A stretch of 18,338 bases of DNA from Promethearchaeota archaeon. GTDB taxonomy: Archaea > Asgardarchaeota > Lokiarchaeia > Sigyniarchaeales > SOKP01. A model generated the notes under the pieces. It made no database searches and was not told the origin of the DNA. It saw only the letters and a program-made list of their open reading frames with translations. Position 1 is the stretch's first letter. Each line of letters opens with the position of its first letter. Shown piece after piece: positions 1 through 11,622 of the stretch. The stretch lies in contig JABCSY010000083.1 of the NCBI GenBank assembly GCA_018238625.1, positions 1 through 18,338 on the forward strand, in the 5' to 3' direction. A program made the position numbers and the translations under genes.

Positions 1-1249
1 CCTGGCGGATTGATGTCTGACCGGTGAGCAGCATTACCAGGCGGTCGATGCCGACCCCCAGGCCGCCGGTGGGCGGCATACCGTACTCCAGTGCCAGCAG
101 GAAGTCTTCGTCAACGGCTTCCTCTATCTCGCCTTCCGCCTGGCGGCTCTTTTGCTGCTCGATGAAGCGCTTTCTCTGCTCGAGCGGGTCATTGAGCTCG
201 GTAAAGGCATTGGCGACCTCCATACCGCCTATGAAAACTTCAAAGCGTTCCACCAGACGTTCATTACCTCGCTTCCTTTTAGCCAAAGGCGACATCTCCA
301 CAGGATAATCGAGAAGAAATGTGGGCTGGATAAGGTTAGGCTCGACGCAGGTGGAAATTAATTCGTCTATAAGTCTACCCCTCTGCTTGGCAGGGTCAAC
401 TTCCATACCCAATTCCATCATCCGCGACCTCAAGGAAGAGGTATCTGAATAATCCTCGAAGTCAAGACCGCAGTAATTCCCGACCGCCTCCCGCAGGCTA
501 AGTCTTGGCCAGGGAGGAGTAAAATCAATGAGCTGTCCATTAAAACTAATTTCGGCTTTGCCCAGAACTCCACGAGCAGTGGTTAAAAACATATACTCAA
601 CCAAACTCATCACATCGTTATAATCGGCATAAGCCTCATAGCTTTCCAGCATGGTGAACTCGGGATTATGTTTGGTGGAAATGCCTTCGTTGCGAAAAAC
701 CCGCCCAATCTCATAAACCTTGTCCAGGCCACCCACTATCAGCCGCTTGAGATGGAGTTCCAGGGCAATGCGCAAATACAGGTCTTCATCAAGGGCGTGG
801 TGATGAGTGATAAAAGGTTGAGCCAGAGCTCCACCAGCCTGTGGCTGTAATACTGGTGTTTCCACCTCCACAAATCCCCGCTCATTCAAGAAGTGCCTCA
901 CAGCAGCTATGATGCGACTGCGCATTATGAAAATGGGCTTGGTTTCCTCATTGGTAATGAGGTCAAGGTAGCGCTGTCGATAGCGCTTTTCAACATCAAC
1001 CATTCCATGCCATTTCTCAGGCAGGGGCTGCAGGGATTTAGACAAGATGGTGAAGTCGTTTACCTCAAGGCTAATCTCTCCGCTCTTTGTCCGGAAAAGC
1101 TTGCCCTCCGCCCCAATAATGTCGCCAATATCAAGGTCACGAAGTAGCTTATATTTGTCTTCGCCGAGTGGGTCGCGGCCAAAATAAAGCTGAATCTTCC
1201 CCGAACCATCGCGGATATCAAGAAAGGCAACTTTGCCCATAAAGCGGCT
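1..1249 (-). CDS. lysS: Class II lysyl-tRNA synthetase, partial (N-terminus missing at the ~1250 junction, 3' end runs off the window); bacterial type
   Basis: Manual minus-strand translation gives SRFMGKVAFLDIRDGSGKIQLYF, PLPEKWHG, RYRQRYLDL, FVEVETPVLQ, YLRIALELHLKRLIVGG, GRVFRNEGISTKHNPEFTMLE, PTFLLDYPVEMSPLAK, ANAFTELNDP and DEDFLLALEYGMPPTGGLGVGIDRL, all class II LysRS motifs. An in-frame TAA at 1264-1262 cuts the frame upstream. Confidence 0.97.
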
Positions 1250-3158: not shown

Positions 3159-3758
3159 TTATAAAAAGAATAATAAGTTAAATATCAAAATTAACACAGT
3201 AACTATTATTCCTATATAGAAAAAACTTTTTTTTGACTCATTTAAAGAAATAATACTTCCTAATCCAATTAAAAAGATGGCAATATTGATCCCAAAAGAA
3301 CCAAAGCCGTATAACCGGTAACTCCAAAAAGATGCGTGAGTAAACATAACGGGTTCTAAATCTGGCATGAGAGAAAAAGCGTATTCTATAAATTTTATGT
3401 TTAAAGTTATTGAGAGATAAATTAAAACTATAAAAATAAATATTAATTCTCCATAGGATTTCCTATTTATATTGTTTAAACCAAATTCTATAGAAAGAAT
3501 TAATATCAAAATCGCAAAGAAAAGCACAACCATAGATAAGACTATATTTAGTCTAAAAGGTATTGCTAATGAAAATATTTGATCTTGTTCTTGATAAATT
3601 CCCAAATACCACACGTTGGATTGACTTGAGATTGATATCCCTTCTTCCCCCTTAGAAATTGCAAATGGTGTGAAAAGTGCAATTATTATTAGAATTGAAC
3701 TTAGTAAAGGTATTAACGCTAATGGGTTCCTTACAATCGTCTTAATTTTATCAATCAT
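3159..3758 (-). CDS. Hypothetical multi-pass membrane protein, 199 aa
   Basis: About 5 hydrophobic segments. ATG start 18 nt downstream of the 89-aa peptide gene on the same strand. Confidence 0.82.
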   Translation of the reverse strand: MIDKIKTIVRNPLALIPLLSSILIIIALFTPFAISKGEEGISISSQSNVWYLGIYQEQDQIFSLAIPFRLNIVLSMVVLFFAILILILSIEFGLNNINRKSYGELIFIFIVLIYLSITLNIKFIEYAFSLMPDLEPVMFTHASFWSYRLYGFGSFGINIAIFLIGLGSIISLNESKKSFFYIGIIVTVLILIFNLLFFL

Positions 3759-3776
3759 ATTTACACATAAATCTCT

Positions 3777-4046
3777 CTAAATAACTTGAAATTTCTTTTT
3801 AAAATCTCTAAGTTTTACAGTCGAGTATAGTGCACCAGAGGGGTAGACATTTTCGTTTATTTTTCCAACTATAAAAATTAAAGAGTTAAACCATCCTATT
3901 ATAATTAGGAACATGACGACAATTAGCAGAAGTCTCCATAAATAAGCATGTTTACTATTATCAAAAATCATTATCTGATTTATCTCTTTTTTGGTTAATC
4001 CTAATTCTTTTCCTACTTCATAAAATTTTATTTTATCACCAATCAA
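3777..4046 (-). CDS. Small hydrophobic peptide, paralog 4 (candidate radical SAM substrate)
   Basis: VGKELGLTKKEIN, hydrophobic core, VYPSGALYSTVKLRDF. TTG start preceded by GAGGG. Confidence 0.88.
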   Translation of the reverse strand: MIGDKIKFYEVGKELGLTKKEINQIMIFDNSKHAYLWRLLLIVVMFLIIIGWFNSLIFIVGKINENVYPSGALYSTVKLRDFKKKFQVI

Positions 4047-4074
4047 ATTTTTTCCCTCAAATTAAAAATAATCT

Positions 4075-5394
4075 TTAATATATTATCGGATCGAACTTAG
4101 GTTTATTTCCCTTCCTTTTTTTAATCCAATTGAATTCTTTCTGGATTTGCGATTTTAAATCTTGTTTATTTTCAACATTGGTTATCTTTATTAGACGCAA
4201 TGTCTTCTTATAAACTTTTTCTGATTGATCATATGATTTTAGTCTTGCTAATGTTTTACTTAAATTCCAGAAAAATAAATAATTATCTCGATTTAATTTA
4301 ATTGCTCTCAAAAATAAATTATGAGCGTGAGTATAATTATTTTGATGAAAAGATTTAATTCCGAGATAAAATAAGTTTAACCCTTTTCTCTCAATTAAAG
4401 TGGTTGAGAATATTTTATTATTTAAATCTTTAGAGGATTTGTGCAGAGTTTTAAGTTTTTCAATAAGTTTTTCTCGATTTTCCTTGGAATTTAGAAGATT
4501 TTCTATTAATTTTCTCGCAAACGATTCTACTGAAAAAAAGATAATTCTTTGCGATCCGGGATTTGTAGGACCTTCAGCTATAGAATTAAAAAGAATATTT
4601 ACAATTTGATGTTCAATTAAAAGCTCTGATATTTCTTTAATATTTAAGTATTCTACGTGAGAGATATAGTTTTCATTTTGTATAGCTAGTAATAAGGATT
4701 TAACGACTTCAGGCCATTTAAACAACAGTTCGACAAATAATTCCTTAGTTAACCCTTTTATTTTTGTTTTTTTTAACTCAAGTAGCTTTAATGCTATGTA
4801 AGTTATTAAATCTTCTTGCTCTTTAGCTAAGAAGGAATCAGCAAAATCAATTTGGTCGCTTAAAAGTAGCTCTTTACGGAGATTAGAAATAACTTGAAAT
4901 ACTTCAAGTTCATTGCTATTACCACTTTTATAGCATTCAAACCTAACTGAGGGAATAGCCTCATCGTTATAAAAACTTGAAGTCGTATTATTATCGAATC
5001 CTGCATTTTCCAATAGTTCGATTAAGAGGAACGGGGGAAAACATAATTTATGCTGCAGTCCTTTATGAGGTATTCCAAAAAACCATCCCAATATTTCTTT
5101 TTTTTGTTCTTCGTTAGCTTTTAAATAATGCTGGCAAGCTTTCTCAAGATCAGGAGTTTCAAGGATTAATTTCCCATTAGGTTCTAACACTCTAAAAAAT
5201 TCACTAAGAGCATAAATAGTTTCAAAAAAACTTAAGTGTTCAATTATATGGATCGCTTTAATTTCATCGCAAGTATTGTCGTCAAAATCAAGGCTAAAAG
5301 CTGACATCAGTTTATCAGCCACCAAATCTTCGTACAAATCGATATTACAATAATCGGGATCGTATTTTTTTCCGCAACCAATATTAAGCTTCAT
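4075..5394 (-). CDS. Class I SAM-dependent methyltransferase with C-terminal TPR-like repeats
   Basis: N-terminal KLNIGCG motif I, NID, HIIEHL, EFFRVLEPNGKLILETPD. C-terminal TPR-like YLGIKSFHQNNYTHAHNLFLRAIKLNRDNYLFFWNLSKTLARLKSYDQSEKVYKKTL. Start overlaps the upstream stop (ATGA, 5394-5391). Confidence 0.88.
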   Translation of the reverse strand: MKLNIGCGKKYDPDYCNIDLYEDLVADKLMSAFSLDFDDNTCDEIKAIHIIEHLSFFETIYALSEFFRVLEPNGKLILETPDLEKACQHYLKANEEQKKEILGWFFGIPHKGLQHKLCFPPFLLIELLENAGFDNNTTSSFYNDEAIPSVRFECYKSGNSNELEVFQVISNLRKELLLSDQIDFADSFLAKEQEDLITYIALKLLELKKTKIKGLTKELFVELLFKWPEVVKSLLLAIQNENYISHVEYLNIKEISELLIEHQIVNILFNSIAEGPTNPGSQRIIFFSVESFARKLIENLLNSKENREKLIEKLKTLHKSSKDLNNKIFSTTLIERKGLNLFYLGIKSFHQNNYTHAHNLFLRAIKLNRDNYLFFWNLSKTLARLKSYDQSEKVYKKTLRLIKITNVENKQDLKSQIQKEFNWIKKRKGNKPKFDPIIY

Positions 5395-5639
5395 TTTTTT
5401 TTATCAAAGTCTTTAATTCTTACAGTTGAATACTTTGTTCCGCTAGGATAAGTGTTGCTAATCGTTGATTCAATAAATAACCCAATAAAATAGGCCACAA
5501 TTGAAAATGTTATGATAAAAATAATCAGCAATATGGTTCTATTCTTAATATTATCAGAGAATAAAACTTTGTTTATTTCTTTTTTAGATAATCCTAATTC
5601 TTTCCCGATTTTATGTAGTTGGATCAAATCTTTCATCAT
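5391..5639 (-). CDS. Small hydrophobic peptide, paralog 3 (candidate radical SAM substrate)
   Basis: IGKELGLSKKEIN, hydrophobic core, TYPSGTKYSTVRIKDF. Confidence 0.88.
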   Translation of the reverse strand: MMKDLIQLHKIGKELGLSKKEINKVLFSDNIKNRTILLIIFIITFSIVAYFIGLFIESTISNTYPSGTKYSTVRIKDFDKKK

Positions 5640-5736
5640 TTTCTCAATAATCGCTCAAATTTTAAAGTTAATTTAATTTTTATATTTTTACCATCAAATT
5701 AAATTTTATGATTTCTTTAAGAAAAAAGTGTTGAAT

Positions 5737-6000
5737 TTAGCTTTTTTCGTTGAAATCTTTTATTTTAACAGTAGAATATAATGTTCCGGTTTGATAAGTA
5801 TTATTTTTTGGAACATATGGTGGTACAGATAAACAAGAGACTATAACTAAAATAAATATAAACATGAGAATTATAATTAGTATAAATCCCCCAAAATCTC
5901 TATCCTTAAAGTTGTCATATAAAAAGATTTTATCTATTTCTTTTTTTTTTAATCCCAATTCTCTTCCTATCTTATACAGTTGAAATAATTCTCTTTTCAT
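5737..6000 (-). CDS. Small hydrophobic peptide, paralog 2 (candidate radical SAM substrate)
   Basis: IGRELGLKKKEID, hydrophobic core, TYQTGTLYSTVKIKDF. SD-like AAGGAGG upstream, overlapping the previous stop. Confidence 0.88.
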   Translation of the reverse strand: MKRELFQLYKIGRELGLKKKEIDKIFLYDNFKDRDFGGFILIIILMFIFILVIVSCLSVPPYVPKNNTYQTGTLYSTVKIKDFNEKS

Positions 6001-6087
6001 TTTCTAAATCATCCCTCCTTATTTGAACTTTATACTATCATTTTTAGCTCTAAAATCTTTTATTCTAACAGTAGAATATAATGTTCC
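5753..6087. repeat. 35-bp direct repeat (5753-5787 and 6053-6087) encoding GTLYSTV(K/R)IKDF
   Basis: AAATCTTTTATT(T/C)TAACAGTAGAATATAATGTTCC, 34/35 identical, 300 bp apart. Confidence 0.9.
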
Positions 6088-6285
6088 AGCAGGATAAATA
6101 TGTCTTGAGGCTTCAATTCCTAAAATAATAACGAAAATTCCCAAAAAAATAAATACGATTATCATTAGGATTTTGTAAAATAATGGATATCTACTATCGT
6201 CAAATAAAAAAACTCTATTAATTTCTTTCTTACTTAATCCTAACTCTTTACCGATTTTATATAATTGAAAAAGATTTTCTAACAT
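6019..6285 (-). CDS. Small hydrophobic peptide, paralog 1 (candidate radical SAM substrate)
   Basis: IGKELGLSKKEIN, hydrophobic core, IYPAGTLYSTVRIKDF. GGAG upstream; 34 nt after the radical SAM stop. Confidence 0.88.
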   Translation of the reverse strand: MLENLFQLYKIGKELGLSKKEINRVFLFDDSRYPLFYKILMIIVFIFLGIFVIILGIEASRHIYPAGTLYSTVRIKDFRAKNDSIKFK

Positions 6286-6319: not shown

Positions 6320-7423
6320 TTATTTGAATATTAAGTTTTGATACATATTTTTTAATATTGAAATTGTTGAATCCAGTTTCCCTTTAATTGGTAATTGTTT
6401 CGATGAAAACATTTTATTTTCGATTGCTCTTAGGCAATAAGGCTCATCAAATTCTTTTAGTGCAAGGGCTGTTCCTAAACATCCTCCTCGACATATTTTT
6501 ACCATATCACAATCTACGCAATAACCTTTTAACTGTTTTTGCTTTAACCTTATCTTTTCCAAAATCGTTTTCAAACTCTGCGTTCTAACATTTCCTTCGA
6601 CAAATCCATCTGGGAGCGTTAAACACCCTTTTATGTTTCCATTGCTCTGAATACCTAAAACCGATAATCCCGCTTGGCATCCTACCCATGGATCCAACCC
6701 TAAATTTGGTATGAACCTTGAAAAATAACCGAAACAATGGGCACCAATAACGGGTAATCTTTTATAGGAATACTTTTTAACATTTATCGCAATGAATAAT
6801 GCAACGGTGTAAAATTCCTCCCTTGAAATCGTTAATTCTCTTGGGAAGCGTCCAATAGGGATTGCTATCTGGATTTGCCAAGCAATATTTCGATCTAATA
6901 ATATATCTTTTATCTTATCTAGTTCATTTAAATTAGTTTTACTTACTGCTGTAATAACACTGACTGGTAGTTTTTCTTCTTTTAACCTGTTAATCGCATT
7001 TAGTGTTTTTTCAAATGCTCCTGGAATACCTCTAAGATAATCGTGGACTTTCGCTGACCCTCCATCTAAACTTAGCGATACGCAGTCAACTTTTAAGCTT
7101 TTTAATTTTTGAATGTTATCAATTAAATTTAATCCATTAGTAACAATTGATAATTCCAGCTTATTTTTTTTAATTTCTCTCGCAATTTCATACCAGTCGT
7201 CTCTAATTAGTGGTTCTCCTCCCATTAAAGCAACTCCTTTATAACCGCAATCACGGATTTCCCTAACTAATTTTAAAGATTCTTCGGTATTTAGTTCATC
7301 AGGACGACTTTTTCCTGCTTTTGATCCACAATGAATGCAATTACTATTACACTTTAGCGTAATTTCCCATACAGCGCAAGAGGGTTTAATTCTTTGAGAT
7401 ATTAGAGAAGTAATGCTTGGCAT
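6320..7423 (-). CDS. Radical SAM/SPASM-domain enzyme, putative peptide maturase
   Basis: AVWEITLKCNSNCIHCGSKAG (CxxxCxxC), MGGEP, VTNG, SLSLDG. SPASM cysteines in GCQAG, GNIKGC, CVDCDMVKICRGGC (CX2CX5CX3C) and PYC. Confidence 0.95.
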   Translation of the reverse strand: MPSITSLISQRIKPSCAVWEITLKCNSNCIHCGSKAGKSRPDELNTEESLKLVREIRDCGYKGVALMGGEPLIRDDWYEIAREIKKNKLELSIVTNGLNLIDNIQKLKSLKVDCVSLSLDGGSAKVHDYLRGIPGAFEKTLNAINRLKEEKLPVSVITAVSKTNLNELDKIKDILLDRNIAWQIQIAIPIGRFPRELTISREEFYTVALFIAINVKKYSYKRLPVIGAHCFGYFSRFIPNLGLDPWVGCQAGLSVLGIQSNGNIKGCLTLPDGFVEGNVRTQSLKTILEKIRLKQKQLKGYCVDCDMVKICRGGCLGTALALKEFDEPYCLRAIENKMFSSKQLPIKGKLDSTISILKNMYQNLIFK

Positions 7424-7988: not shown

Positions 7989-8870
7989 TTATTCCATAGG
8001 CCATTCGAGTAATGACAATATTAAATTTTTGTTAGATAATCCTCCTCGAGTAAGTGTACCTACAAAATTTTCTCGTTTAAACATTTTTTTTAAGACATAT
8101 CTTAAAAGTTGCTTATCCAGAAGTCCTTTTTGTTTAGCTTCATTTTGAAATTCGTGAGCTTTCAGATGTAATGAAGTAATCTCATCCATTCTATCTTTTA
8201 AAAACGATCTGCCTTTATAAACGCCCTTCCCAGAAGTAAAGAGGAGCAAATTGTCCATTCCTTCTGCGAAATCATATAATTTTTTAATTGATTGAAATAT
8301 AAGTGAGATATCCTCGGGAATGTCAGTATCCTTACCAAATATCATTTGATATTTTGGCATTACTGCGTCGGTGATAAATGCCCATTGTTTTTTTCGTTCA
8401 ATTAAACTAATTAGTTCAGGAGCATGTCCTGGAGTATCTATTATTTCAAAAATGTATTTACCTGACTTAGATCTAATTGAATCTTTTAATAGTTCAGCTT
8501 GAAACGGTTGGTAATCTACGCCCCAAGTCATCTGTCGATAATCGGGATATTCTTTTTCTTTCATTAATAGTGGAATAGCCAGCTTACTAGCGAAAACGGG
8601 AATGTTAAATTTTTCTCGGAGCATACGACCCCCGCCACAATGATCTTCGTGGTTATGTGTAATTACACACTTCTCAGTCATATTATTGGAATTAAGAGTT
8701 TTTATAAATTTGCGTAAATCGCCTACTCCTCCTGGAGCACCCGCGTCAATCAATAACCCGTCAATTAAAAATACTGATGTCCAAAAAGGCTGAGGCATTA
8801 ATTCGCTGTCTGAAGACCATTTCCATTCTAATATCTCGTTATTACAGTGATAAACTATCTGAACAGCCAT
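7989..8870 (-). CDS. MBL-fold metallo-hydrolase
   Basis: LLIDAG, THNHEDHCGG (HxHxDH), TPGHAPE, FITDA. Confidence 0.93.
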   Translation of the reverse strand: MAVQIVYHCNNEILEWKWSSDSELMPQPFWTSVFLIDGLLIDAGAPGGVGDLRKFIKTLNSNNMTEKCVITHNHEDHCGGGRMLREKFNIPVFASKLAIPLLMKEKEYPDYRQMTWGVDYQPFQAELLKDSIRSKSGKYIFEIIDTPGHAPELISLIERKKQWAFITDAVMPKYQMIFGKDTDIPEDISLIFQSIKKLYDFAEGMDNLLLFTSGKGVYKGRSFLKDRMDEITSLHLKAHEFQNEAKQKGLLDKQLLRYVLKKMFKRENFVGTLTRGGLSNKNLILSLLEWPME

Positions 8871-9018: not shown

Positions 9019-11622
9019 TTACCCATATACAGGGTACATTATAGGGAAAACAAAAAGAAACGGAAGAGGGTAAAAAAGTGAAATAATAAATAGCGATACT
9101 AATCCAGGGAGAATACTTCTTCTTTTATAAAAAGCAAATCCTAGTAGTAATCCAGATACAAAAATATAGATAAATTCAAATACTAAATAGTATAAAAGTT
9201 GATCTATGTCTATATATTGCGGAGAGGAGCTAATAATAAGTAGATATGGAAGAATAAATTTTGAGACAAGAAAAATAACGGCTTGTTGTATTATTGCTTT
9301 TTTAGGGCTAGATTTTTTCATTAAAATCGTCAAAATAATTCCACGATATAACAACTCTTGGAAAAAAATATAGATTAAATAACTTGTCCATAGCATTATA
9401 TTAATATTAATATTAAACAAATTACTCGAACCTTGCAATTTCGTTAAGGATGTGACAATATATAAAACGGAAATAGATGAAATTACAAAAATAATGGTTT
9501 TGAGGCTTTTTTTATTTAAAATCAACTTAAGCCAACTTAGCCCAGAACAATCTAAATATTGACTAAGCGATTGTCTTCCGTTTGGCAGCCCTAAACATTT
9601 CGGTACAAAATAAAACCAAATAAATATCAAAAGGATGCACGGTACTCCAAAAATAACTATTACCTTAAATAAATATGAAAAATCTTGTTGACGCACATAA
9701 TAATAATCATACGGGTCTACCCAGATCCAAAAAAAACTTATAAAAAAAAAGAATAAGAAAAGTGAAACATAGTCTATAATAACTAAAGATACAATTGATA
9801 GCTTGTTGTTCCTAGAAAAAATAGTTGGTTTTTGCTCTACTTTTTTAACAAATAAAAAACTCTCTTTTTTGTAGGATGGCAATAATGTATCATAGAAGAT
9901 AAATACAATTAAAAACCCCACGATTAGAAAGATCCAGAACGATGTTACCATGTTATTCAAATCTTGAAAATAATATAATTGTAGAAAAATCGAAAATACC
10001 CAAATAAGAAGACCAAAAGGCACAGAAATGGTCATAGTCCATTTAAATATACGGTTTTGGGGATTGTAATATCCTAATACATAATTTTTTTTTTTCTTTC
10101 TACCGAATAATTCGATTCTTAAAAGAAATATAATCAATAAAATTAGCCAATTGAATGGTAATGTGAAAAGAAAATTAGCAATTATGGCAATAAAATTAGG
10201 ATTAGTGAGGTACATTAAAGAGGGTAAGAGTGTTGCGCAAGTTTGAAAAATAAAAATCAGAAATAATTTGGATTTAGCTTGCTCTCTTGGAACAATGGGC
10301 AAAGTATCAATAATTGACCCTCCAGATGCGTCTAGGTTCATTATCGCATGAACTAATAAGCCTGAAATAATTGGGCTAAAAATTAAAATGCGAATCCAGT
10401 TAAGTAAAAACCCACCATCAGTAAAACTAATGATTCCAATATTTTTAATGCCTATTATCGTGATAAAAATAAAAGAGAGCGTTATCGGCATAATAATTGA
10501 TATGAATGCTTTAATGTCTCGCGAGATTATGTAAAGATCTCTACGTAAGTATGCAATAAAAGATGTTGTAATTCTAACATCTACCCCATTATCCTTATTA
10601 ATTGCTTTAAAATTCCCTATTACATTAATTGCCTTGAGTTTAGAAATGCTAATTCTCTCAATTGCTTTAAATGCTTTTTTAGAAATCCAATATGTTATAA
10701 TGCTAAACAGTGCAAAGCCAATCAAAGTACTTACCCACAGCTGAGGGGATGCTTGATTGGGAGCGATAAATAAAGAAATTAAAAAGCTAGAACTAAAAGG
10801 ATAAGGAATAAGGCTTAGGATAAGGTTTATTATGGAATGATAATCGGAAGCGACAAATAGATCGTACATTATCCCTATCGAGCTAAAAAACCATTGAATA
10901 ATAGCGTAACTGCTAAAAATTATAATTATATAGCTAAAAATGTTAATTAATCGAATAAGTAAAGTTTTTTTTGATCCGATTTCATTAATGTCCAAAATTC
11001 GATTTATCCGTTCTCCAATTAGAATTAATATGCTAAATGAAAATACTAAATTAACAAATGAAATTCCAAAGCATATCAAGAACAATATTAAACTTTGGCT
11101 TCCAATTAATATAACTAACGGAAATGAAAAAAATAAAACTATAATTGGTATATCATAGCTACGAAATAAAGTTAAATAAACAATTTTCAATAATTTTTTT
11201 CTCGAAATTGGTAGCGTTTCTAGCCATTCAAAAATTTTGCCTGAGATAATCATTGTGGCATCTAACATCCCCATTATAAAAAAGTTTAAAAATTGCAGAG
11301 CAAAATAAAGAGAAAAAAGCAAACCCCCCATAAAAAATATACTTTCGATTGAAGCTGAGCTGTTCATAAAGAGATTGATTAGTTCTAAATAAGTTAATAG
11401 AGGGATTACAGGCATAACTCCAAAGATAATCGCGTAAAATAATTTCGTGAGAACTACTTTTAACTTAAATCTAAACGGACGATTATTATATTTATTTAAA
11501 AAATACGATTTGTTTCCACCCTTTGTAAATACTAATTCTTCAACTAGTAATTCTTTACTGGTGTATTTTGTCAAATAATACAGTGAAAGGTTCTCTTTTT
11601 CTATTGGATTTCTTCTTTTCAT
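9019..11622 (-). CDS. Large polytopic membrane protein: ABC-exporter permease-like region plus C-terminal degenerate CPBP (CAAX/Abi) domain
   Basis: Many TM segments; duplicated permease-like motifs WLETLPISRKKL and IIDTLPIVPREQAKSK; C-terminal FFQELLYRG and LLLGFAFYKRRSILPG. Confidence 0.7.
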   Translation of the reverse strand: MKRRNPIEKENLSLYYLTKYTSKELLVEELVFTKGGNKSYFLNKYNNRPFRFKLKVVLTKLFYAIIFGVMPVIPLLTYLELINLFMNSSASIESIFFMGGLLFSLYFALQFLNFFIMGMLDATMIISGKIFEWLETLPISRKKLLKIVYLTLFRSYDIPIIVLFFSFPLVILIGSQSLILFLICFGISFVNLVFSFSILILIGERINRILDINEIGSKKTLLIRLINIFSYIIIIFSSYAIIQWFFSSIGIMYDLFVASDYHSIINLILSLIPYPFSSSFLISLFIAPNQASPQLWVSTLIGFALFSIITYWISKKAFKAIERISISKLKAINVIGNFKAINKDNGVDVRITTSFIAYLRRDLYIISRDIKAFISIIMPITLSFIFITIIGIKNIGIISFTDGGFLLNWIRILIFSPIISGLLVHAIMNLDASGGSIIDTLPIVPREQAKSKLFLIFIFQTCATLLPSLMYLTNPNFIAIIANFLFTLPFNWLILLIIFLLRIELFGRKKKKNYVLGYYNPQNRIFKWTMTISVPFGLLIWVFSIFLQLYYFQDLNNMVTSFWIFLIVGFLIVFIFYDTLLPSYKKESFLFVKKVEQKPTIFSRNNKLSIVSLVIIDYVSLFLFFFFISFFWIWVDPYDYYYVRQQDFSYLFKVIVIFGVPCILLIFIWFYFVPKCLGLPNGRQSLSQYLDCSGLSWLKLILNKKSLKTIIFVISSISVLYIVTSLTKLQGSSNLFNININIMLWTSYLIYIFFQELLYRGIILTILMKKSSPKKAIIQQAVIFLVSKFILPYLLIISSSPQYIDIDQLLYYLVFEFIYIFVSGLLLGFAFYKRRSILPGLVSLFIISLFYPLPFLFVFPIMYPVYG

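What the first reader, a model, noticed from the sequence alone, without database searches (positions are those of the whole stretch)
3777..6285. Four peptides with conserved ends and a hypervariable hydrophobic core
Seen: all four share G[KR]ELGL[STK]KKEI[ND] near the N-terminus and Y[PQ]xG[TA]xYSTV[RK][IL][KR]DF near the C-terminus, while the ~25-aa Ile/Leu/Phe/Val-rich middle differs in each. Inference: either leader + variable core + follower, or a single-pass membrane protein with the two motifs on opposite faces. In the second case a cytoplasmic radical SAM enzyme could reach only one motif after insertion. The N-motif loosely recalls the end of Nif11-type leaders (AIAKEAGF), a weak resemblance.
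Basis: partly seen in the sequence, partly recalled or inferred. Interest (0 to 1): 0.8.

Follow-up and report, generated by a model that had tools for sequence, protein, structure and literature searches.

The report
Tyrosine-tail membrane substrates of radical enzyme
Four small membrane proteins of an Asgard archaeon carry a shared docking motif at the front and a floppy tyrosine-containing tail at the back, which the neighbouring radical SAM enzyme and methyltransferase most likely modify chemically; the variable middle is only a membrane anchor.

Summary
In detail: four minus-strand ORFs (82-89 aa) carry both motifs exactly as written. Among the paralogues, identity is 54% in the N part, 14% in the middle and 59% in the C part. 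The interpretation needs correcting. The hydrophobic middle is a transmembrane helix. It is 70-76% conserved among orthologue-like rows and is absent from distant relatives, so it is a spacer or anchor, not a modified core. The C-terminal motif is the core. TM-less relatives repeat it 1-7 times as [DE][LIV]YK[AS]G[TG]-X-YGT[IV]SPK[DE], with only X hypervariable, and they lie beside homologous radical SAM genes. The N motif is a helix-turn-helix leader shared with those relatives (hhalign 98%); it is not Nif11. The cassette rSAM/SPASM, peptide(s) and methyltransferase-TPR recurs in 16 of 16 fetched same-genus loci, and its methyltransferase-TPR gene is found in 73 of 301 genomes of the phylum. 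The nearest annotated enzymes are the Nif11-class maturase 3 (next to a Nif11 precursor with one Leu-Tyr-Gly site) and the GDL-motif maturase. The likeliest chemistry is therefore splicease-like editing of the second tyrosine, here at X-Tyr-Ser rather than X-Tyr-Gly. The chemistry is untested, and earlier notes of this scan report the same system in other genomes.

The parts
6320..7423 (-). Radical SAM/SPASM enzyme, 367 aa. The CxxxCxxC motif starts at residue 25. There is no N-terminal RRE/PqqD domain. This is the putative modifier of the tyrosine tail.
   Evidence: Pfam Radical_SAM 3.7e-28 and SPASM 6.9e-5. Best NCBIfam models are TIGR04103 at 203.5 bits (cut-off 725) and TIGR03913 at 184.5 bits. 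It is the only TIGR04103 match in the genome at E up to 1e-10. Seven SPASM-region Cys are invariant in 28 homologues.
6019..6285 (-). pepA, 88 aa: leader helix-turn-helix (N motif at nt 6217-6252), TM helix (residues 34-60), tyrosine-tail core YPAGTLYSTVRIKDF (nt 6052-6096).
   Evidence: GGAG lies upstream of the ATG.
5737..6000 (-). pepB, 87 aa: N motif at nt 5932-5967; core YQTGTLYSTVKIKDF at nt 5752-5796.
   Evidence: AGGAGGG lies upstream of the ATG.
5391..5639 (-). pepC, 82 aa: N motif at nt 5571-5606; core YPSGTKYSTVRIKDF at nt 5406-5450. Its stop overlaps the start of the methyltransferase gene (ATGA).
   Evidence: The same 4-nt overlap is seen in L027, L034 and L038-L040 (coordinates).
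4075..5394 (-). Class I SAM methyltransferase (residues 1 to about 150), helical middle, then C-terminal TPR (about 335-420); 439 aa. Putative second modifier and peptide-binding partner.
   Evidence: Pfam Methyltransf_11/23 and TPR_2. SAM-binding residues G6, G8, D19 and D27 are invariant in 16 homologues. AF2 pLDDT 82.6. Foldseek returns only generic class I methyltransferases.
3777..4046 (-). pepD, 89 aa, TTG start: N motif at nt 3978-4013; core YPSGALYSTVKLRDF at nt 3801-3845. This paralogue type always sits directly upstream of the 199-aa membrane protein.
3159..3758 (-). 199-aa polytopic membrane protein of no known family, starting 18 nt after pepD. Possible membrane partner of the pepD type.
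   Evidence: No Pfam or NCBIfam hit. A homologue lies directly after a peptide gene in 7 of 16 same-genus loci: L028, L029, L031, L032, L033, L035, L041. The ESM Atlas gave no informative neighbour.

Best explanation
The four ORFs are paralogous precursor or substrate proteins of a three-part maturation cassette: a radical SAM/SPASM enzyme, the substrate(s), and a methyltransferase-TPR protein.

Each substrate has three modules.
1. An N-terminal two-helix leader (..IGKELGLSKKEIN..). It docks to or activates the enzymes, possibly through the TPR domain.
2. A transmembrane helix. It is only a spacer and anchor, specific to each paralogue lineage.
3. A disordered C-terminal core, Y-x-x-G-x-X-Y-S-T-V-x-x-x-D-F. 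The second tyrosine of this core is the site of radical chemistry, and a methylation follows.

Only about 25 residues follow the helix. The protein should therefore be released from the ribosome before the helix can engage the membrane. That leaves time for the cytoplasmic enzymes to edit the tail before insertion; the edited tail and the leader then end up on opposite faces.

The most likely chemistry is the splicease reaction. [quoted passage not shown] Here the site is X-Tyr-Ser instead of the canonical X-Tyr-Gly.

What is shown and what is inferred:
- Shown: the module architecture, the homology to TM-less multi-core precursors, the gene linkage, and the nearest enzyme relatives.
- Inferred: which tyrosine is hit, the reaction itself, the order of modification and insertion, the role of the TPR domain, and the biological use.

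The confidence given (0.7) is for the architecture and the substrate role. For tyramine excision specifically I give about 0.4.
For: Gene linkage:
- In 16 of 16 same-genus loci the order rSAM, 1-3 peptides, methyltransferase-TPR is kept. These loci were fetched from 16 of the 20 same-genus genomes with a strong peptide match.
- Around methyltransferase-TPR homologues from other lineages of the phylum, the rSAM is adjacent in 18 of 20 loci. A small membrane ORF with a C-terminal X-Y-[GSA] tail is present in 18 of 20.

The C motif is the core:
- TM-less relatives carry 1-7 tandem copies (38 precursors, 122 units). Every position is conserved except X (R23, Y21, K17, L12, I10, D9, W5 ...), and Gly follows the second Tyr in 113 of 122 units.
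- These precursors lie beside rSAMs 40-56% identical to the window's in 13 of 20 metagenome loci. Methyltransferase-TPR homologues are present in 4 of those 20.

The N motif is a shared leader:
- hhalign of the 42 TM forms against 8 TM-less forms gives probability 98%, E 1.6e-13, over 28 columns.
- AF2 models helices at residues 2-14 and 19-26.

Enzyme kinship:
- TIGR04103 and TIGR03913 are the top two NCBIfam models for all 28 archaeal rSAMs tested.
- tblastn against plasmids finds a Nostoc 'nif11-class peptide radical SAM maturase 3' at 34.3% identity, E 4e-53. MftC scores 29%, E 5e-29.
- The Nostoc gene sits between a Nif11 precursor ending ..AGG/RGSIALYGLPPELF and a 71-aa ORF. This is the A-X-Y layout of type I spliceotide clusters.
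- A quick tree puts the 44 archaeal enzymes in one clade (SH-aLRT 99). That clade lies next to the bacterial clade holding TIGR04103 and the GDL enzymes, apart from MftC, TIGR04053 and a PqqD-linked rSAM.

Literature:
- Spliceases are rSAM/SPASM enzymes that excise tyramine at XYG sites with variable X. In binary systems a leader helix activates the enzyme, and a core of about 25 residues suffices (PMC11414181, parts 1-2 read; passages of PMC9811515 and PMC10533398).

Tolerance of Ser:
- One cassette with a single rSAM (L131) holds tails with Y-S and with Y-G.
- L118 holds Y-A and Y-G.
Against: - The rSAM scores 203 bits against TIGR04103, far below its 725-bit cut-off. In the tree the archaeal clade is a sister of the bacterial enzymes, not nested among them. 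A different reaction is therefore quite possible.
- All 4 window tails, and 41 of 41 motif-bearing tails of the genus, have Tyr-Ser and not Tyr-Gly. In the papers I could read, only XYG sites are described as spliced.
- The first tyrosine and the glycine three residues after it are also invariant in these forms, which splicing at the second tyrosine does not explain.
- No role for a methyltransferase is known in spliceotide pathways from what I read.
- No PqqD-like Y protein is in the window.
- Topology is open. K+R counts in the 15-residue flanks favour N-in (3.5 against 1.6), but the far C tail is Lys-rich.
- The tree is a quick search with only 9 bacterial sequences, picked from plasmid hits.
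- 7 of 20 metagenome loci with TM-less precursors showed no rSAM. Four of these are contigs under 6 kb or weak matches, but L079 (6.4 kb held), L080 (12.2 kb) and L086 (12.1 kb, weak match) had room for one.
- No expression data exist.
Confidence: 0.7

Rival explanations
1. Same architecture and same enzyme-substrate relation, but a different radical chemistry on the tail. Candidates are a tyrosine cross-link (a three-residue cyclophane Tyr-x-Thr as in triceptides, a Tyr-Tyr link, or a Tyr-Lys/Asp link) or a side-chain modification, followed by methylation.
For: - Two tyrosines, the glycine between them, and Thr/Ser two residues after the second tyrosine are conserved. That is more than an XYG splice site needs.
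- Ser, Ala or Asn can replace Gly after the tyrosine. A Tyr-x-Thr link would tolerate this easily.
- The enzyme falls below every curated NCBIfam cut-off and branches outside the bacterial clade.
Against: - The triceptide maturase models (XyeB, GrrM, FxsB; names recalled) are not among the 25 best of 81 NCBIfam families shown for the rSAM.
- In the multi-TM and shortest forms only X-Y-G-[VT]-[FY] remains at the C-terminus. The first tyrosine is then far away or missing.
- The only hypervariable position is the one before the tyrosine, as in spliceotides.
Confidence: 0.25
2. One reading: the N motif is a leader, the variable hydrophobic middle is the modified core, and the C motif is a follower or recognition sequence.
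For: The middle differs most between paralogues, at 14% identity, as cores of some RiPP families do.
Against: - TM-less homologues have no middle at all, yet keep the leader, the C motif and the rSAM neighbour.
- The unit that is multiplied is the C motif.
- The middle has no invariant residue in 42 sequences and folds as a confident 27-residue helix.
- It is 70-76% conserved among orthologue-like rows.
Confidence: 0.03
3. The tail is the precursor of a peptide-derived redox cofactor or prosthetic group, in the manner of PQQ or mycofactocin. It would be made from the conserved tyrosine(s) and either released or kept membrane-bound.
For: - MftC and PqqE are detectable relatives of the rSAM.
- Old-Yellow-Enzyme family flavoproteins lie beside the rSAM and precursor genes in 3 of the 11 TM-less loci whose neighbours I scanned: L069, L071, L072.
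- A mycofactocin locus likewise carries a FadH/OYE oxidoreductase next to mftC.
Against: - Up to 7 tandem cores with a hypervariable residue next to the tyrosine suit a diversified product set, not a single cofactor.
- There are four paralogues in one genome.
- No OYE gene was found in the window.
- MftC is a much weaker match than TIGR04103 or TIGR03913.
Confidence: 0.07
4. The four proteins are ordinary unmodified small membrane proteins (for example an HTH-anchored regulator or an assembly factor), and their position next to the rSAM is only conserved synteny within one genus.
For: - The N motif looks like a helix-turn-helix: weak z-alpha hits in 11 of 42 sequences, best E 0.043.
- MscL, AAA and VWA genes are also syntenic in the genus.
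Against: - The linkage holds far outside the genus, across families of the phylum, and in TM-less forms from other archaea with different flanking genes.
- The stop of the peptide gene overlaps the start of the methyltransferase gene.
- No known family matches.
Confidence: 0.04

Closest known systems
Spliceotide pathways: rSAM/SPASM tyramine spliceases. These are type I PlpX/PcpX with the Y protein and Nif11-type precursors, and binary RhaX/RcsX/RasX with a leader helix.
   Same: - An rSAM/SPASM enzyme sits next to small precursors.
- The target is a Tyr in a short disordered core, with the preceding residue free to vary.
- A helical leader is separable from a core of about 25 residues (PMC11414181).
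- The nearest curated enzyme model is TIGR04103. A Nostoc member of it sits by a Nif11 precursor with one LYG site.
- No Y protein is present, as in binary systems.
   Different: - The enzyme is well below the family cut-off, and the archaeal clade is a sister clade.
- The site here is X-Tyr-Ser.
- The leader is not Nif11 or NHLP.
- A transmembrane helix lies between leader and core.
- A methyltransferase-TPR fusion is an obligate partner.
- The hosts are archaea.
- The chemistry has not been measured.
GDL-motif peptide (DUF1843) systems with the TIGR03913 radical SAM/SPASM maturase, in Azospirillum and Aureibacter.
   Same: - This is the second-best (for some archaeal homologues the best) NCBIfam model; tblastn gives 33% identity at E about 1e-50.
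- Several tandem small peptides lie upstream of the rSAM.
- The peptides carry X-Tyr-Gly or X-Tyr-Ala: RPYGP, QPYGAG, LYAAG, MYAAS.
- In Aureibacter a class I methyltransferase follows the rSAM.
   Different: - In those peptides the Tyr motif is at the N-terminus of a soluble helical peptide.
- They have no TM helix and no TPR domain.
- The Aureibacter methyltransferase shows no BLAST similarity to the window's.
- The function of that system is unknown to me.
Mycofactocin and PQQ maturation (MftC/MftA, PqqE/PqqA).
   Same: An rSAM/SPASM enzyme acts on a tyrosine near the C-terminus of a small precursor. Both are detectable homologues.
   Different: - Those systems need an RRE chaperone (MftB, PqqD), which is absent here.
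- They are much weaker matches.
- They use single-copy soluble precursors without a variable residue.
Tail-anchored membrane proteins.
   Same: A single hydrophobic helix lies close to the C-terminus, with a median of 25.5 residues after it. This implies insertion after translation.
   Different: The tail is longer and more charged than in classical tail-anchored proteins. The orientation and the insertion route are unknown.

Membership tests
Spliceotide / splicease system | The enzyme belongs to the PlpX-type splicease family. NCBIfam TIGR04103 is taken as its model; that equation rests on the Nostoc locus seen here and on recall. | tested here: not met
   The score is 203.5 bits against a cut-off of 725, although it is the best of 81 matching models. 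All 28 archaeal homologues are below the cut-off. In a quick tree the archaeal clade is a sister of the bacterial clade.
Spliceotide / splicease system | The precursor carries an X-Tyr-Gly splice motif. | tested here: not met
   The window has X-Tyr-Ser in 4 of 4 tails, and the genus in 41 of 41. TM-less relatives have Tyr-Gly in 113 of 122 units. Mixed Y-S/Y-G and Y-A/Y-G tails occur in single cassettes L131 and L118.
Spliceotide / splicease system | [quoted passage not shown] | not testable with these tools
   This needs mass spectrometry of a co-expressed or reconstituted substrate.
Spliceotide / splicease system | An activating helix, supplied by a Y protein or by the leader. | tested here: inconclusive
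   No PqqD-like ORF is in the window. The N motif is modelled as two helices and is shared with TM-less precursors. Whether it binds the enzyme was not established.
Nif11-type leader peptides | Sequence match to the Nif11 leader domain. | tested here: not met
   None of the 42 peptides hit a Nif11 or NHLP model in NCBIfam at E up to 10. No Nif11 model is among the 25 of 48 Pfam families shown at E up to 10. hhalign against a Nostoc Nif11 precursor gives probability 0.2%.
RiPP-type precursor (leader plus core, encoded beside its maturase) | A small ORF next to the modifying enzyme, with a conserved recognition part, a separable core, and multi-core variants. | tested here: met
   In Pfam the best recurrent hit is z-alpha, in 11 of 42 sequences at E 0.043. 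NCBIfam gave no recurrent family. In PHROGs, 3 unnamed families matched at most 3 of 42 sequences. Foldseek against the PDB gave no match at E up to 0.001.
Triceptides (three-residue cyclophane RiPPs) | A maturase of the XyeB/GrrM/FxsB type (names recalled) and aromatic-x-x motifs. | tested here: inconclusive
   Tyr-x-Thr is conserved. Those maturase models are not among the 25 of 81 families displayed; the remaining 56 were not shown.
Tail-anchored membrane proteins | A single TM helix so near the C-terminus that insertion must follow release from the ribosome. | tested here: met
   22-42 residues (median 25.5) follow the uncharged span in 42 sequences, and there is one confident helix. The insertion route itself is not testable here.

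The most novel reading that the evidence does not exclude
Asgard archaea use a relative of the backbone-splicing radical enzymes on integral membrane proteins, not to make secreted peptides. The tail is edited in the cytoplasm during the interval before a tail-anchor-like insertion. The cell then carries a family of membrane-anchored proteins whose tails hold an electrophilic alpha-ketoamide, further methylated. The side chain beside the ketoamide and the transmembrane helix differ from paralogue to paralogue. This would be a genetically encoded, diversifiable covalent trap at the membrane, for example for proteases or partner proteins. The soluble multi-core precursors of other archaea would be the secreted version of the same chemistry, and Tyr-Ser would be a new kind of splice site.
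Probability: 0.25. Interest if true: 0.8.

Novelty: new variant of a known kind. Interest (0 to 1): 0.62.

Why it matters
If the tail is really edited, this would be a rare case of radical backbone or tyrosine chemistry applied to integral membrane proteins, and it would be in the archaeal lineage closest to eukaryotes. It would extend splicease-type chemistry in three ways: to archaea, to Tyr-Ser/Ala/Asn sites, and to a new partner, the methyltransferase-TPR protein. The TM-less natural relatives give ready soluble substrates for a direct mass-spectrometric test. Spliceases are already used as protein-engineering tools (PMC11414181, PMC10533398), so enzymes with another site preference and a different leader would be useful in practice. 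The methyltransferase-TPR marker of the cassette was found in 73 of 301 sampled genomes of the phylum, so the cassette is a common, unannotated part of Asgard cell biology.

Tried and rejected
- Complex prediction of the rSAM (alignment of 28) with pepA (alignment of 42), SAM and three 4Fe-4S clusters: no answer, score 0.02 against a mark of 0.32; controls were not run. It is no evidence either way.
- RNA evidence: no RNA holder was listed among 21 runs. All laid runs were DNA contigs, so nothing can be said on expression.
- Nif11 idea: rejected.
- Holin, pilin and other known membrane families: no match.
- Structure of the methyltransferase-TPR protein: AF2 pLDDT 82.6, but the SAM-binding N-terminal 60 residues are at 38-69. 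Foldseek found only generic class I methyltransferases, so the methyl acceptor stays unknown.
- PDB sequence search of the rSAM found only SkfB, a cytosylglucuronate decarboxylase, PqqE and a tetraether synthase at E 3e-18 or weaker. This did not discriminate.
- ESM Atlas for the 199-aa membrane protein: no hit at 0.9 or above.
- The 'relatives' sample at first suggested the peptides are confined to one genus: 20 of 36 same-genus genomes at E 1e-24 or better, and only weak hits (E 8e-4 to 9e-3) elsewhere. This was corrected. Two further genera of the family carry them (L130-L132), and more distant tails occur across the phylum.
- Odd versus even TM counts as a topology clue: dropped, because L129 appears to have two helices while others have one or three (read by eye).
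- Literature: searches for splicease/tyramine, spliceotide/archaea, TIGR04103, the title of Scott et al. 2022, and archaeal RiPP/radical SAM/Asgard found no description of this cassette. The key survey (Scott et al. 2022, Chem; 939 predicted splicease systems according to PMC10533398) is not in the library. A passage of PMC11626197 speaks of spliceotide and graspetide clusters 'in bacterial and archaeal genomes', so the archaeal family may already be listed there.


Full report
**1. The observation**

The window is the whole of contig C40 of a 4.29-Mb, roughly 30% G+C genome. Public records with related loci are all labelled Promethearchaeota or Promethearchaeia, that is, Asgard archaea. A few carry depositor labels Odin-, Hod- or Hermodarchaeota.

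Four ORFs lie on the minus strand at 6285..6019, 6000..5737, 5639..5391 and 4046..3777. Each contains G[KR]ELGL.KKEI[ND] at residues 12-23, and Y..G..YSTV[RK][IL][KR]DF 64-83 residues in. Among the paralogues, identity is 54% in the N part, 14% in the middle and 59% in the C part. A profile of the four finds only these four in the genome, at E about 1e-39 to 1e-41.

**2. Gene context**

- A radical SAM/SPASM gene (7423..6320) lies upstream of pepA.
- A gene for a class I methyltransferase fused to TPR repeats (5394..4075) lies between pepC and pepD. Its ATG overlaps the stop of pepC.
- A 199-aa polytopic membrane protein of no known family follows pepD 18 nt downstream.

A search of 61 related genomes found strong peptide matches in 20 of 36 same-genus genomes. 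I fetched loci from 16 of these. All 16 show the order rSAM, 1-3 peptides, methyltransferase-TPR. In 7 of the 16 a peptide gene is directly followed by a homologue of the 199-aa protein. MscL, AAA/VWA and a metallo-beta-lactamase-fold gene recur nearby in some loci. I read that as ordinary synteny. The 867-aa CPBP-domain membrane protein of the window has no counterpart in those loci.

**3. What the three parts of the peptides are**

An alignment of 42 full-length peptides keeps G12, L15, L17, Y64 and Y70 invariant. G16, G67, S71, K76, D77 and F78 are kept in at least 90%. Nothing in the middle is conserved.

AlphaFold2 on this alignment (pLDDT 80.9) gives helices at 2-14 and 19-26, one long helix at 34-60 with pLDDT above 90, and coil at about 60 for the Tyr motif.

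The middle is not hypervariable in the sense of a diversifying core. Against orthologue-like rows in other genomes it is 70-76% identical, and the flanks are 79-86%.

The decisive evidence came from the exhaustive profile search of 1.84 billion representatives (83 hits at E up to 1e-3).
- Besides TM forms with Y-G, Y-A or Y-N tails, it found proteins with the same N motif, no hydrophobic segment, and tandem repeats of the C motif.
- One member of such a cluster is an NCBI protein of a Thermoplasmatota MAG.
- In 38 such precursors there are 122 units with the consensus [DE][LIV]-Y-K-[AS]-G-[TG]-X-Y-G-T-[IV]-S-P-K-[DE], at 1-7 units per precursor. X is the only variable position. 29 of the 38 carry the leader-like motif, and some are leaderless.
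- hhalign aligns the N motif of the TM forms to that of the TM-less forms at 98% probability.

So the N motif is a leader, the C motif is the core, and the hydrophobic middle is an inserted anchor.

**4. Linkage beyond the genus**

Twenty metagenome loci hold TM-less precursors.
- 13 of 20 carry one to four rSAM genes 40-56% identical to the window's.
- 4 of 20 carry a methyltransferase-TPR homologue.
- 7 of 20 show no rSAM. Of these, L067, L077, L081 and L085 are short contigs; L079, L080 and L086 had more than 6 kb, and L085 and L086 are weak matches.
- In the 11 of these loci whose neighbouring genes I scanned, extra genes include B12-binding rSAMs, Old-Yellow-Enzyme flavoproteins (3 loci), a CPBP protease, a LuxE-type acyl-protein synthetase and a transglutaminase-like protein.

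A profile of the methyltransferase-TPR protein finds it in 73 of 301 sampled genomes of the phylum, in 16 of 70 genera. I fetched 20 such loci.
- The rSAM is adjacent in 18 of 20. L122 lacks it, and L123 ends at the contig edge.
- 18 of 20 hold small membrane ORFs with an N-terminal ..[IV]G..L[GN][LV]....[EI].. motif and a C-terminal X-Y-[GSA]-[STV] tail. Some have one helix; some are 140-180 aa with several helices and end in X-Y-G-[VT]-[FY].
- Within single cassettes, Y-S occurs beside Y-G (L131), and Y-A beside Y-G (L118).

**5. The enzymes**

The rSAM has the CxxxCxxC motif from residue 25, seven invariant Cys in the SPASM region, and no RRE domain.

Its best NCBIfam models are TIGR04103 ('nif11-class peptide radical SAM maturase 3', 203.5 bits, cut-off 725) and TIGR03913 ('GDL motif peptide-associated', 184.5 bits). 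These are the top two models for all 28 archaeal homologues tested. It is the only gene of the genome that matches TIGR04103 at E up to 1e-10.

tblastn against plasmids ranks the hits as follows:
- an unannotated Agathobacter rSAM, 35%;
- a Nostoc TIGR04103 enzyme, 34.3%, E 4e-53;
- GDL-type enzymes, about 33%, E about 1e-50;
- MftC, 29%, E 5e-29, and TIGR04053, 30%, E 4e-25.

The Nostoc gene is flanked by a Nif11 precursor whose core is RGSIALYGLPPELF and by a 71-aa ORF. This is the layout that the literature describes for type I spliceotide clusters (PMC11414181).

GDL-type enzymes sit behind DUF1843 peptides that carry X-Y-G or X-Y-A near the N-terminus. In Aureibacter a class I methyltransferase follows the rSAM; it is unrelated in sequence to the window's.

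A quick maximum-likelihood tree has 53 rows. The careful search did not finish, and the 9 bacterial rows were chosen from the plasmid hits. It gives one archaeal clade of 44 rows (SH-aLRT 99). That clade sits next to a bacterial clade of TIGR04103, GDL and related enzymes (99) and the Agathobacter row. All of these are separated (98) from MftC, TIGR04053 and a PqqD-linked rSAM. The TM-type enzymes of the window's family nest beside the multi-core enzymes.

The methyltransferase domain keeps its SAM-binding residues in all 16 homologues aligned. It resembles only generic class I methyltransferases.

**6. Mechanism**

[quoted passage not shown] X is naturally variable. In binary systems a leader helix activates the enzyme rather than guiding the core, and a core of about 25 residues is enough (PMC11414181, parts 1-2; passages of PMC9811515, PMC10533398, PMC11626197 and PMC10849128).

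The present family fits this logic point by point: a helical leader, an arbitrary linker, a short disordered core, an invariant Tyr, and a hypervariable residue before it. I therefore take splicease-like editing of the second tyrosine as the most likely reaction, at about 0.4.

Four points argue for caution.
- The enzyme is only a sister of the known clade.
- The window's site is Tyr-Ser.
- A second invariant Tyr and an invariant Gly are unexplained.
- The methyltransferase has no known role in spliceotide pathways.

A tyrosine cross-link is the main rival.

Two facts ease this.
- Recognition does not need a membrane, because TM-less homologues exist.
- Only 22-42 residues follow the hydrophobic span. 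By the general rule for tail-anchored proteins, the helix leaves the ribosome only at termination, so modification can precede insertion.

Orientation is unresolved. The near flanks favour N-in, with K+R of 3.5 against 1.6, but the distal tail is Lys-rich.

**7. Presence elsewhere**

Contigs of independent cold-seep runs (X5 and X8, from a different study than the likely source) cover parts of the cassette with 0-20 differences per piece. The locus therefore exists in more than one sample. No RNA data were available.

**8. Known or new**

No paper in the searchable library describes this cassette. The main splicease survey is not held, and it may list archaeal members.

Earlier notes of this scan describe the same kind of cassette in other Asgard genomes, including Tyr-Ser and Tyr-Asn forms. 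I reached my reading before seeing them and tested the overlapping claims on my own data. One of those reports was later marked 'part of it fell', so they are not support.

I rate this a new variant of a known kind. It is a real and coherent system. The chemistry remains open.

Noticed in passing
window 1-1240 (minus strand ORF 2..1240): A class II aminoacyl-tRNA synthetase fragment of the Asp/Asn/Lys type (Pfam tRNA-synt_2, 1.3e-87) has 51% G+C, against 27-32% for the following 10 kb of the contig. No listed contig piece of four other runs bridges positions 1240-1345, and one run continues with different AT-rich sequence before 1345. This may be a chimeric contig end or a transferred gene. 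The genome's only other match to this protein is 24% identical.
   Followed up: partly
window 3159-3758 with 3777-4046; L028, L029, L031, L032, L033, L035, L041: The pepD-type paralogue is always followed directly by a 199-aa polytopic membrane protein of no known family (7 of 16 same-genus loci). In L031-L033 this pair sits apart from the rSAM cassette, on the other side of mscL. This suggests a helix-helix partnership specific to the paralogue.
   Followed up: partly
window 9019-11622 (minus); L069:11335-12051: An 867-aa polytopic membrane protein has a C-terminal CPBP/Rce1-like protease domain. A small CPBP protein also lies in one TM-less multi-core locus. It could be a processing protease or an immunity protein, but it is not conserved in the 16 same-genus loci.
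   Followed up: partly
L068, L069, L071, L072, L082 (metagenome loci): TM-less multi-core loci hold 2-4 paralogous rSAM/SPASM genes interleaved with 2-3 precursors. They also carry B12-binding rSAMs (L068), Old-Yellow-Enzyme flavoproteins (L069, L071, L072), a LuxE-type acyl-protein synthetase and a transglutaminase-like protein (L082). These look like much more elaborate pathways than the window's.
   Followed up: partly
L078, L079, L082, L083: Some multi-core precursors have no leader motif at all (MKKKEHADP.. followed directly by repeats YKSGGxYGTISPKD). They still sit beside the rSAM, and in L078 and L082 also beside the methyltransferase-TPR gene. A leader is therefore not always needed.
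   Followed up: no
L143 (Aureibacter plasmid), L139 and L148 (Azospirillum plasmids): Bacterial DUF1843 'GDL motif' peptides next to TIGR03913 rSAMs carry X-Tyr-Gly or X-Tyr-Ala within their first residues. In Aureibacter a class I methyltransferase follows the rSAM, so the trio of rSAM, Tyr peptide and methyltransferase recurs in bacteria with unrelated peptide scaffolds.
   Followed up: partly
L120:6063-7131: In one Asgard locus the rSAM is split into two ORFs of 130 and 170 aa. This may be a frameshift, a pseudogene or an assembly error.
   Followed up: no
window 7989-8870 (minus): A metallo-beta-lactamase-fold protein lies upstream of the rSAM. A homologue lies upstream of the rSAM in 4 of 16 same-genus loci (L026, L029, L030, L034). 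A role in the pathway is possible but not supported further.
   Followed up: no
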